This document shows, piece by piece, positions 16,556 through 16,950 of a DNA stretch of 64,000 nt. The translations under genes and the position numbers were made by a program. The stretch's first letter is position 1, and each line of letters opens with the position of its first letter. This DNA is from a virus. The notes beneath the pieces are model-generated. The model made no database searches and was not told where the DNA came from. It saw nothing but the letters and a program-made list of their open reading frames with translations. Location of the stretch: the IMG/VR virus record IMGVR_UViG_3300009149_007655. One strand, written 5' to 3'.

Positions 16556-16621
16556 ACGACAAAAAGAATATACGACGAAAAAATTCAGAACAATAAAGAA
16601 ATCCTACCTAAAAAAGACCAG

Positions 16622-16757
16622 TCCGTTGCCCAACCCTCTTAGTTTGAGTAAACCACAGTCTGTATAGGATACATTTTAAAATAGTAAATTAATACTAAAT
16701 TAAAAAGTATCCTACACAGACCGTTAGTTTACTCAATCTAAGAAGATTGGACAACGG
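16622..16757. repeat. long imperfect inverted repeat (arms ~51 nt, ~85% complementary, ~34-nt A/T loop) in a 400-bp gene-free gap
   Basis: Left arm tccgttgcccaaccctcttagtttgagtaaaccacagtctgtataggatac. The right arm is its near reverse complement, gtatcctacacagaccgttagtttactcaatctaagaagattggacaacgga. Confidence 0.7.
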
Positions 16758-16950
16758 AAAGGTACTCTACTTAAACTACCATAATGTTGATTATATAAAA
16801 ATATAACCGCATTATTTTATACATAGCCAGTGACCTTTGAGTATTCAAAGTCTTAACTATAATATTACGCAAGGAACCATAGGTCGTCTTGCGTTATTAA
16901 CAAGGTTTATCCAAAGAAACATTAATATCTTTTTTGAGATTTTTGGCATC

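What the first reader, a model, noticed from the sequence alone, without database searches (positions are those of the whole stretch)
16556..16950. 400-bp gene-free gap containing a ~135-nt imperfect inverted repeat: candidate structured ncRNA or replication origin
This is the largest non-coding stretch in the leftward block. Its core is two ~51-nt arms of ~85% complementarity (16622..16672 and 16707..16757) around an A/T-rich loop. That is far longer than a terminator, and the mismatches are spaced like internal loops of a structured RNA or a cruciform-forming origin. A further hairpin (cgcaagg...cttgcg) lies at ~16860.
Basis: seen in the sequence. Interest (0 to 1): 0.55.

Follow-up and report, generated by a model that had tools for sequence, protein, structure and literature searches.

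The report
Conserved giant mRNA hairpin in jumbo phages
The gap holds a 73-base-pair RNA hairpin, made on the same strand as the genes and kept by evolution in about 90 related uncultivated giant phages, that most likely marks a cutting or insulation point inside a multi-gene messenger RNA and is not a replication origin.

Summary
Arms 16617-16686 and 16693-16763 enclose a 6-nt loop, and the RNA stem extends to 16607-16775. It is the most stable fold in the 64-kb window by a wide margin.

It is selected as RNA on the minus (gene) strand. The minus strand folds at -98.7 kcal/mol and the plus strand at -68.9. All 8 transition mismatches are G-U on the minus strand. Across 77 relatives the count is 362 G-U on the sense strand against 48 on the antisense strand.

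A long hairpin of unrelated sequence sits at the same place in about 90 of 99 distinct relatives, a median of 54 nt before the start codon of a conserved 191-aa zinc protein. A gp32-like single-strand-binding protein gene follows. Covariation is strong: 35 of 35 pairs show double changes.

A conserved U-rich box (UUUUKUYGUU) lies between the hairpin and the ribosome site. The hairpin and a promoter-like motif are almost mutually exclusive (p = 3e-9), so the hairpin goes with an internal position in an operon.

Best reading: an intercistronic processing or insulation site in the mRNA, probably an RNase III substrate. The origin or cruciform reading is not supported. No Rfam family matches. The mechanism is inferred, not shown.

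The parts
16607..16775 (-). Giant RNA hairpin. The core arms are 16693-16763 (5' arm on the minus strand) and 16617-16686 (3' arm), with a 6-nt loop at 16687-16692 and a basal extension to 16607/16775.
   Evidence: The minus-strand RNA fold is -98.7 kcal/mol (z -16), with 74 pairs of which 10 are G-U; 23 of 69 pairs show compensatory changes among the window, L125 and L127.
16610..16615 (-). U6 tract directly after the basal stem. This gives a terminator-like geometry in this subclade.
   Evidence: Read from the sequence. L125 and L127 also have U-rich runs directly after the stem. Family-wide, only 17 of 77 loci do.
16572..16583 (-). U-rich box, upstream copy (UUUUUUCGUCGU).
   Evidence: It matches the family motif found in the leader of the homologous gene.
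16554..16565 (-). U-rich box, downstream copy (UUUUUGUCGUUU), abutting the ribosome-binding site.
   Evidence: this is the only exact copy in the window; columns T122, T123, T125, G127, T128 and T129 are conserved in 70-77 of 77 loci; 35 of 38 sense-strand matches in 573 kb of loci lie within 80 nt before this gene's ATG.
16549..16553 (-). Shine-Dalgarno sequence GGAGG of the 191-aa gene. The start codon is at 16541-16543.
   Evidence: AAGGAG/GGAGG is conserved 6-10 nt before the ATG in the relatives.
15968..16543 (-). 191-aa conserved Cys/His (zinc-type) protein of unknown fold. This is the gene the hairpin is positioned against.
14964..15929 (-). 321-aa gp32-like single-stranded-DNA-binding protein, the next gene in the operon.
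16867..16894 (-). Small 12-bp stem-loop between the 99-aa gene and the giant hairpin.
   Evidence: Three of 12 pairs are compensatory in the window, L125 and L127.
16951..17250 (-). Upstream small ORF (99 aa). It is a tandem duplication of the ~50-aa 'KKLRRRIE...IKVP' domain that precedes the hairpin in most relatives.
17432..17442 (-). Promoter-like motif TATATATAAAT upstream of the small ORF. It is the inferred start of the transcription unit that contains the hairpin.
   Evidence: sense-strand copies at 17432-17442 and 25895-25905, and a one-mismatch copy at 27818-27828, all lie in intergenic gaps. The same CTATATATAT(T/A)AAT motif appears in relatives. Its function is inferred, not tested.

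Best explanation
The element is a cis-acting RNA structure on the minus strand, inside a polycistronic phage mRNA. The inferred unit is: promoter-like motif, small 'KKLRRRIE' ORF, giant hairpin, U-rich box, 191-aa zinc protein, gp32-like SSB.

Shown:
- The hairpin is selected at the RNA level on the gene strand.
- It is conserved in position and pairing, but not in sequence, across a large clade of uncultivated jumbo phages.
- It is spaced relative to the downstream start codon rather than the upstream stop codon.
- It is present when the downstream gene lacks its own promoter-like motif and absent when the gene has one.

Inferred mechanism: the 25-73 bp of near-perfect dsRNA is an endonucleolytic processing and insulation site. 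The most plausible enzyme is the host's RNase III, which cuts any dsRNA of about 22 bp or more. Cleavage would separate the upstream small-ORF message from the downstream message and give the downstream message a defined 5' leader. That leader carries the U-rich box and the Shine-Dalgarno sequence. Stability and translation of the zinc-protein and SSB genes would then be set independently of the upstream cistron. This is what the RNase III sites of T7 and the pnp and rnc leaders of E. coli do.

The G-U wobbles keep the RNA fully paired while making the DNA palindrome imperfect (84%). That should reduce cruciform formation and palindrome instability in the genome.

In the window's own subclade a U6 tract follows the stem directly, so partial termination (attenuation) may be superimposed.
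For: Strand-specific RNA selection:
- RNA fold is -98.7 kcal/mol on the minus strand and -68.9 on the plus strand. With DNA parameters the gap is only 7.5 kcal/mol.
- In the window, 8 transition mismatches are G-U on the minus strand and none on the plus strand.
- Over 77 loci, 362 transition mismatches are G-U on the sense strand and 48 on the antisense strand (binomial p 1e-60). Seventy loci favour the sense strand and none favours the antisense strand.

Conservation:
- Homologues of the 191-aa gene in 124 fetched loci give 99 distinct upstream regions. Ninety have a single hairpin of -25 kcal/mol or better within 320 nt upstream.
- Stems are 24-73 bp with unrelated sequences.

Covariation:
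- 23 of 69 pairs are compensatory in the window, L125 and L127.
- In a covariance-model alignment of 29 matches (27 sense-strand loci plus 2 weak antisense matches), 93.3% of cells are paired and 35 of 35 pairs show double changes. The covariation score is 0.762, against 0.241 for shuffles and at most 0.104 for slid controls.

Positioning:
- Hairpin to ATG is a median 54 nt (sd 12). Stop codon to hairpin is a median 37 nt (sd 55).
- The U-rich box is almost unique to this leader: 35 of 38 sense-strand matches in 573 kb.

Polycistronic context:
- The promoter-like motif lies within 320 nt upstream in 9 of 9 hairpin-less loci and in 6 of 90 hairpin loci (Fisher p 2.9e-9).

Contrast with ordinary terminators: other gaps in the window hold 9-18-bp GC-rich stems.

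RNase III background: the minimum target is about 22 nt of dsRNA, and known cases include pnp 5'-UTR and lambda cIII regulation (PMC5371410).
Against: - No cleavage, transcript-end or expression data exist; the phage clade is uncultivated.
- The host is unknown. If it lacked RNase III the proposed enzyme would be wrong. One homologue is binned in a Thorarchaeota MAG, although the window encodes a muramoyl-alanine amidase domain and a bacterial-type pilin methylation motif.
- No RNase III or dsRBD gene is present in the 64-kb window.
- T7-type RNase III sites carry an internal loop that restricts cleavage to one strand. These stems are near-perfect, so cutting would be double-stranded and multiple.
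- Generic dsRNA does not explain the sequence conservation at the stem base (CCUGUCAC...) and in the upper 5' arm (GCUUUUA) seen in many loci.
- The 'promoter-like motif' is inferred from recurrence in gaps only.
- Hairpins were first located by sense-strand folding, and the covariance-model alignment is fitted to the structure. Both lean towards the result, although the arm-by-arm count and the trio alignment do not depend on the model.
Confidence: 0.45

Rival explanations
1. Intrinsic terminator or attenuator. The hairpin, with the U6 that follows it in the window, stops or reduces read-through from the small-ORF/RNAP-side transcript. The zinc-protein and SSB genes are then expressed at a lower level or from a different start.
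For: - In the window the basal stem (UACC/GGUC) is followed directly by U6 at 16610-16615.
- L125 and L127 also have U-rich runs right after the stem.
- A T-run lies a median of 17 nt after the stem family-wide.
- The hairpin goes with the polycistronic context, which also fits an attenuator.
Against: - Only 17 of 77 loci have a U-tract within 0-2 nt of the stem, so canonical geometry is not a family feature.
- The consensus scan calls no terminator here.
- Ordinary terminator-like hairpins in the same window have 9-18-bp stems, so 25-73 bp is not needed for termination.
- A full terminator would leave the downstream conserved genes without a recognisable promoter motif.
- The hairpin is spaced relative to the downstream ATG, not the upstream stop.
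Confidence: 0.2
2. Translational operator. The hairpin plus the single-stranded U-rich box is bound by an operon-encoded nucleic-acid-binding protein (the gp32-like SSB and/or the 191-aa zinc protein). Binding represses its own synthesis, as T4 gp32 does on its leader (a structured element followed by an unstructured A/U-rich tract reaching the ribosome site).
For: - The next gene but one encodes a gp32-like SSB.
- The hairpin ends about 54 nt before the ATG.
- A highly conserved U-rich box unique to this leader lies about 33 nt before the ATG and is duplicated in several lineages, including the window.
- The U-box persists even in hairpin-less lineages.
Against: - The gene directly controlled is the 191-aa protein, not the SSB.
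- The structured element is a plain hairpin of very variable length, not a pseudoknot.
- The hairpin is dispensable where the gene has its own promoter-like motif, so at most the U-box would be the operator.
- The leader is not selected to be unstructured (z about 0 against shuffles).
- No binding data exist.
Confidence: 0.15
3. Trans-acting RNA. The hairpin is excised and acts on its own, for example as a dsRNA decoy for a host defence or RNA-binding protein, or as a precursor of small regulatory RNAs.
For: - The stem is very long and near-perfect.
- The only Rfam similarity is sub-threshold resemblance to miRNA-precursor shapes.
- Some sequence blocks inside the stem are conserved.
- Stem length varies from 18 to 73 bp among close relatives, as might be expected under an arms race.
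Against: - In most loci there is no promoter-like motif immediately upstream of the hairpin and no terminator geometry immediately after it.
- Stem sequence is mostly unconstrained, which argues against a sequence-specific trans target.
- Spacing to the downstream ATG is tight.
- The hairpin is lost when the gene has its own promoter motif, which a trans-acting function would not predict.
Confidence: 0.1
4. DNA-level element. This is the first reader's alternative: a replication origin, a cruciform, or a single-strand DNA hairpin such as a priming site. A mobile palindromic repeat (MITE/REP-like) is a related possibility.
For: - It is a large AT-rich gap next to replication genes (SSB, topoisomerase II, helicase).
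- The inverted repeat would fold as single-stranded DNA (z -10 to -13).
- G-T wobbles would also favour one DNA strand slightly.
- One hairpin-less lineage has AACTTTTAAAAC repeats at this place.
Against: - A cruciform needs both strands to pair. The plus strand has A-C mismatches at all 8 transition sites.
- The strand asymmetry is 30 kcal/mol as RNA but 7.5 as DNA.
- There are no iterons or direct repeats in the window's gap.
- Cumulative GC skew is monotonic through 16.6 kb and turns only at about 50 kb.
- The element is single-copy in 64 kb and sits at an orthologous position in all relatives, so it is not a mobile repeat.
Confidence: 0.04

Closest known systems
RNase III processing sites of phage T7 polycistronic mRNAs (e.g. 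R1.1, just downstream of the RNA polymerase gene). From my own knowledge.
   Same: - Both are intercistronic hairpins in a phage polycistronic mRNA, positioned between cistrons and close to the RNA polymerase gene(s).
- Both have enough dsRNA for RNase III.
- The expected effect is the same: separate messages with their own stabilities.
   Different: - T7 sites are about 20+ bp with an internal loop that directs single-strand cleavage. These stems are 25-73 bp and near-perfect.
- Cleavage is not shown here.
- There is no sequence or Rfam relationship.
E. coli pnp and rnc leader hairpins (RNase III-initiated control of the downstream message; PMC5371410).
   Same: A long stem-loop sits in the 5' leader of the regulated gene, downstream of another cistron (rpsO-pnp). 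Cleavage would set the stability of the downstream mRNA.
   Different: - Those are cellular autoregulatory circuits with known enzymes.
- Here the downstream genes are a novel zinc protein and an SSB, and no nuclease link is known.
T4 gene 32 translational operator (from my own knowledge).
   Same: A stable RNA structure lies some tens of nucleotides upstream of the start codon. It is followed by an A/U-rich tract that reaches the ribosome site, in an operon encoding a gp32-like SSB.
   Different: - The T4 element is a pseudoknot; this is a giant hairpin.
- The U-box is a conserved sequence, not merely an unstructured region.
- The first regulated gene is not the SSB.
Rho-independent terminators and attenuators.
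   Same: A hairpin followed by U6 in the window and its closest relatives.
   Different: - The stem is 3-5 times longer than usual.
- The U-tract is not adjacent to the stem in 60 of 77 relatives.

Membership tests
Any Rfam 15 family | Covariance-model score at or above the family's gathering threshold | tested here: not met
   There were no hits in the whole window. Over the hairpin only sub-threshold miRNA-precursor look-alikes appear (46.6 bits against a gathering score of 117, and similar). No family covers the hairpin in 20 related loci.
RNase III processing site | At least about 22 bp of continuous dsRNA | tested here: met
   The window has 73-74 pairs with only 1-nt mismatches. The median in relatives is 39 bp. 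The threshold is from PMC5371410.
RNase III processing site | Cleavage by RNase III giving staggered ends with a 2-nt 3' overhang | not testable with these tools
   This needs an in vitro cleavage assay or 5'/3'-end mapping.
RNase III processing site | Location within a transcript, between cistrons or in a 5' leader | tested here: inconclusive
   Synteny and the lack of a promoter-like motif between the small ORF and the hairpin in 84 of 90 loci fit this. Transcription itself is not observed.
Intrinsic (Rho-independent) terminator | U-tract immediately (0-2 nt) after a GC-closed stem | tested here: inconclusive
   The feature is met in the window (U6 at 16610-16615) and in L125 and L127. It is met in only 17 of 77 loci family-wide. 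The consensus scan finds none in 16400-17600.
Intrinsic (Rho-independent) terminator | Short stem (about 5-20 bp) and small loop | tested here: not met
   Stems are 24-73 bp. The window's other terminator-like hairpins have 9-18 bp.
Replication origin / cruciform | Strand-symmetric DNA palindrome, iterons or initiator boxes, and a skew inflection | tested here: not met
   Mismatches are strand-specific (8 against 0 in the window; 362 against 48 family-wide). No repeats beyond chance 12-mers are present. Cumulative GC skew has no inflection at 16.6 kb.
Replication origin / cruciform | Initiation of DNA synthesis at the site | not testable with these tools
   This needs marker-frequency analysis or replication-intermediate mapping.
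T4 gene-32-type translational operator | Structured nucleation element followed by an unstructured A/U tract to the RBS of the SSB gene, bound by the SSB | tested here: inconclusive
   The structure and U-rich tract are present, and an SSB-like gene is in the operon. However, the adjacent gene is not the SSB, the leader is not less structured than shuffles, and binding cannot be tested.
Mobile palindromic repeat (MITE/REP-like) | Multiple dispersed copies in a genome | tested here: not met
   It is unique in 64 kb. It occupies one orthologous position in the relatives.
6S-like RNA | Long helix with a large central open-promoter-like bubble | tested here: not met
   There is no central bubble in the MFE or centroid structure, and no Rfam 6S hit.

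The most novel reading that the evidence does not exclude
The hairpin, its conserved stem-base and upper-arm sequence blocks and the U-rich box together form a dedicated RNA signal. A phage-encoded factor reads it; the candidate is the adjacent 191-aa zinc protein, which has no known fold. In a clade of jumbo phages that carry their own multisubunit RNA polymerase, this signal would functionally replace a promoter by creating the 5' end of the replication-gene message. That would be a previously undescribed phage RNA-processing system. Alternatively, the excised dsRNA could act in trans as a decoy.
Probability: 0.12. Interest if true: 0.7.

Novelty: new member of a known kind. Interest (0 to 1): 0.4.

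Why it matters
The finding defines an RNA structural motif that is absent from Rfam. The motif is conserved with strong covariation in roughly a hundred uncultivated jumbo-phage genomes. It sits at the junction between the phage RNA polymerase genes and a replication-protein operon.

If it is a processing or insulation site, it shows how these phages set different expression levels within long single-strand gene blocks. Phages of this kind have their own polymerase and few recognisable promoters. The motif also gives a compact, testable RNA part (hairpin plus U-box).

The near-exclusive relationship between the hairpin and a promoter-like motif is a useful handle for annotating transcription units in this clade.

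It is not a replication origin, so origin searches should look elsewhere.

Tried and rejected
- Link to the major-vault-protein-like gene two genes downstream. The MVP-like gene occurs only in the window and its closest relatives (L125, L128). The hairpin is family-wide, so the two are not linked.
- Riboswitch-like or attenuator alternative pairing between the 3' arm and the spacer. It is convincing and covarying in one subclade (L047, L055, L062, L063, L064, L066). It is absent family-wide (mean z -0.18) and in the window (z +0.6).
- The U-rich box as a general phage promoter. It is unique to this leader: 35 of 38 sense-strand matches, and one copy in the 64-kb window.
- U-box pairing with the Shine-Dalgarno region. 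It is predicted in about half of the loci only, as composition alone would give.
- Leader selected to be unstructured. It is not (z about 0).
- A phage-encoded RNase III or dsRBD protein. None was found in the window.
- Cultured relatives or literature for this clade. There is no DNA or 191-aa protein match in 50,697 phage records, and RNAP beta is at most 28% identical to YerA41-like phages. Paper searches returned nothing specific.
- Function of the 191-aa protein from its fold. The model is confident but has no PDB neighbour.
- My first hairpin-finder missed about 10 loci where the fold was split by a multiloop. I re-scored with a single-hairpin energy criterion.

Full report
**1. The observation**

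The gap 16544-16950 (407 nt) lies between two minus-strand genes. It is the largest non-coding stretch in the leftward block.

The inverted repeat is real and larger than described. The arms are 16617-16686 and 16693-16763, 84% complementary as DNA, around a 6-nt loop. Folded as RNA, the stem reaches 16607-16775, with 73-74 pairs.

It is far beyond chance:
- The z-score is -16 on the minus strand and -13 on the plus strand against dinucleotide shuffles.
- In a sliding 180-nt scan of all 64 kb it is the extreme outlier: -98.7 kcal/mol against a mean of -31.6 (sd 7.4), with the next independent minimum at -60.7.
- No other inverted repeat in the window is comparable.

The small hairpin at 16867-16894 is also real. 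It keeps its pairing through three compensatory changes in the closest relatives.

**2. Which strand, and RNA or DNA**

The minus strand carries all the neighbouring genes. It folds 30 kcal/mol better than the plus strand as RNA (-98.7 against -68.9). With DNA parameters the difference is only 7.5 kcal/mol.

The cause is that every transition mismatch between the arms is a G-U wobble on the minus strand and an A-C clash on the plus strand: 8 against 0 in the window.

An arm-against-arm alignment in 77 related loci counts every internal mismatch. It gives 362 transitions that are G-U on the sense strand and 48 on the antisense strand (p 1e-60). Seventy loci favour the sense strand and none favours the antisense strand.

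A cruciform or double-strand DNA site would be symmetric. This is selection on a sense-strand single-stranded molecule, most simply the transcript.

**3. Genomic setting**

The window is the DNA/RNA-metabolism region of an uncultivated jumbo phage with about 31% GC. It encodes topoisomerase II subunits, ribonucleotide reductase, helicases, a methyltransferase, RecA-like and other proteins.

Upstream of the gap lie RNA polymerase beta' (22484-25495) and beta (18389-22480), two small genes and a 99-aa ORF.

Downstream lie three genes:
- A 191-aa Cys/His protein (15968-16543).
- A 321-aa protein (14964-15929).
- An 838-aa major-vault-protein-like gene.

The 321-aa protein is confidently modelled. 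Its structural neighbours are PhiC31 gp3, RB69 and T4 gp32, then a long list of OB-fold SSBs. It also has invariant cysteines, a disordered Q/P-rich tail and a C-terminal FSFEDLEF, so I read it as a gp32-like SSB.

The 191-aa protein has a confident model but no PDB neighbour.

No cultured phage is close.

**4. Relatives**

Homologues of the 191-aa gene were fetched from IMG/VR and JGI metagenomes (124 loci), plus seven loci of the closest proteins.

Gene order is conserved: RNAP beta, two small genes, a small 'KKLRRRIE...IKVP' ORF, [hairpin], the 191-aa gene, the SSB-like gene, then variable genes, then a MoxR-like ATPase and a VWA protein. The window's 99-aa ORF is a tandem duplication of that small-ORF domain. 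The MVP-like gene is present only in the closest relatives, so it is unrelated to the hairpin.

Of 99 distinct upstream regions, 90 hold a single hairpin of -25 kcal/mol or better. Stems run from 24 to 73 bp. The window's is the longest, and most of the sequence is unrelated between lineages. Even close relatives differ: about 70 bp in L125 and L127, 58 bp in L128 and 18 bp in L129.

**5. Covariation**

The window, L125 and L127 can be aligned. Of 69 consensus pairs, 23 keep pairing through changes on both sides.

A covariance model built from one subclade recovers 27 loci at the expected site on the sense strand, plus two weak antisense matches that are also rows of the alignment. On that 29-row alignment:
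- 93.3% of cells are paired.
- All 35 pairs show double changes.
- The covariation score is 0.762, against 0.241 for shuffles (0 of 500 reach it) and at most 0.104 when partners are slid by 1-3 columns.

That alignment is fitted to the model, which favours the structure. The trio alignment and the alignment-free recurrence of a hairpin in 90 diverged loci do not have that bias.

Some sequence blocks are nevertheless conserved in many lineages: the stem base (CCUGUCAC...GUGACAGG) and an upper 5'-arm block (GCUUUUA).

**6. What it is positioned against**

The 3' end of the hairpin lies a median of 54 nt (sd 12) before the ATG of the 191-aa gene. Its 5' end lies anywhere from -7 to 324 nt after the upstream stop codon (median 37, sd 55).

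Between the hairpin and the ribosome site there is a conserved U-rich box, consensus UUUU(U/G)U(U/C)GUU(Y)UAA. Several of its columns are identical in 70-77 of 77 loci. It starts a median of 17 nt after the stem and ends a median of 33 nt before the ATG. It is duplicated in the window (16572-16583 and 16554-16565) and in several other lineages.

The box is specific to this leader. Of 38 sense-strand matches in 573 kb of loci, 35 lie here. The window has one exact copy. It is therefore not a general promoter.

**7. The context rule**

A motif CTATATATAT(T/A)AAT recurs in intergenic gaps on the gene strand, both in the window (17432-17442, 25895-25905, 27818-27828) and in relatives. I read it as the clade's promoter-like signal; this is an inference.

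It occurs within 320 nt upstream of the 191-aa gene in 9 of 9 loci that lack the hairpin, and in only 6 of 90 that have one (Fisher p 2.9e-9). Several of those six hold atypical, distant hairpins.

Where the gene follows the small ORF without its own motif, the hairpin is present. Where the gene has the motif, the hairpin is gone, while a U-run box is usually still there.

The hairpin therefore serves a need created by being an internal cistron. The U-box belongs to the gene's own leader.

**8. Mechanism**

What is shown: a strand-specific, covarying RNA hairpin that is spaced to the downstream gene and tied to polycistronic context.

What is inferred: the hairpin is a processing and insulation site. 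Any 25-73 bp near-perfect dsRNA is a substrate for bacterial RNase III, whose minimum target is about 22 nt of dsRNA (PMC5371410). Cutting would uncouple the small-ORF message from the zinc-protein/SSB message and give the latter a defined leader. The T7 RNase III sites and the pnp and rnc leaders work this way (PMC5371410 for pnp and rnc; T7 from my own knowledge).

The G-U pairs would keep the RNA paired while degrading the DNA palindrome. This is a plausible reason for the bias, given the known instability of long perfect palindromes (established knowledge; an inference here).

I put this mechanism at about 0.45. The broader statement, that this is a cis-acting RNA structure on the minus strand and not a DNA origin, I put at about 0.9.

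**9. Rivals**

- Terminator or attenuator (0.2). The window and its nearest relatives have a U-tract right after the stem. Only 17 of 77 loci do so family-wide, the consensus scan finds none, and ordinary terminators in the window are 9-18 bp.
- gp32-style translational operator (0.15). This is attractive because of the SSB gene and the U-box. But the adjacent gene is not the SSB, the hairpin is dispensable in promoter-bearing loci, and the leader is not unusually unstructured.
- Trans-acting excised dsRNA (0.1). There is no promoter-like motif immediately upstream and no terminator geometry in most loci. The stem sequence is mostly free to vary, and the hairpin is lost when the gene has its own promoter motif.
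- DNA-level origin, cruciform or mobile repeat (0.04). This is contradicted by the strand asymmetry, the lack of iterons, the monotonic skew and the single orthologous copy.

**10. Comparison and novelty**

No Rfam 15 family matches the element in the window or in 20 relatives. The only similarities are sub-threshold resemblances to miRNA-precursor shapes, which reflect a long hairpin and nothing more.

It works like known intercistronic or leader hairpins, but it is an undescribed motif family. I therefore file it as a new member of a known kind. It has unusual features: extreme and variable stem length, a companion U-box, and exclusivity with a promoter-like motif.

Interest is moderate (0.4). 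The comparative signal is solid and specialists in phage RNA biology could use it. The likely function is conventional and remains untested.

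Noticed in passing
window 12366-14882 (minus): An 838-aa protein matches the major vault protein shoulder domain (PF11978, E 8e-20). A vault repeat (PF17795) scores 28.4 bits, just below its 28.8-bit curated cut-off. The gene is also present in the closest relatives (L125, L128) but absent from more distant ones. It lies in a stretch of higher GC (about 38% against 31%). An MVP-like gene in a phage is unusual.
   Followed up: partly
window 58403-59443 (plus): A 346-aa protein gives a full-length match to Pfam Volactin (PF25216, E 7e-74), an actin-family protein described from haloarchaea. It may be a phage-encoded cytoskeletal protein.
   Followed up: no
[not shown]
   Followed up: partly
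[not shown]
   Followed up: partly
window 17432-17442, 25895-25905, 27818-27828 (minus); also L001, L005, L006, L075, L079, L088, L115, L121-L123: The motif CTATATATAT(T/A)AAT recurs in intergenic gaps on the gene strand across the whole clade. It is a candidate phage promoter, reminiscent of the T4 late TATAAATA.
   Followed up: partly
L047, L055, L062, L063, L064, L066 (10-20 nt after the hairpin): In one subclade the spacer after the hairpin is complementary to the middle of the hairpin's 3' arm and covaries with it (for example GGGUGUUGGUGU with GCAUCAACAUCC). This gives an alternative stem-loop a few nucleotides before the U-run, so the element may be a switch or attenuator in that lineage only.
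   Followed up: partly
L005, L067, L080 (100-200 nt upstream of the 191-aa gene homologue): These lineages lack the long hairpin. They carry a 13-15-bp hairpin followed by four or five AACTTTTAAAAC-like direct repeats.
   Followed up: no
L120:1443-1495 and L096:1422-1464: Both loci give matches above the gathering score to Rfam DUF3800-VI RNA (RF02915), about 1 kb upstream of the 191-aa gene homologue.
   Followed up: no
window 50490-50871: This is the divergent strand switch between the leftward and rightward gene blocks. It coincides with the only sign change of GC skew in the window, so it is a better candidate than 16.6 kb for an origin or a divergent promoter region.
   Followed up: no
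window 10703-11161 and an unlocated ORF in 1676-47403 (minus): A NADAR-domain protein lies at 10703-11161. A KhpA/B-type KH-domain RNA-binding protein was detected in the batch Pfam scan but I did not locate its ORF.
   Followed up: no
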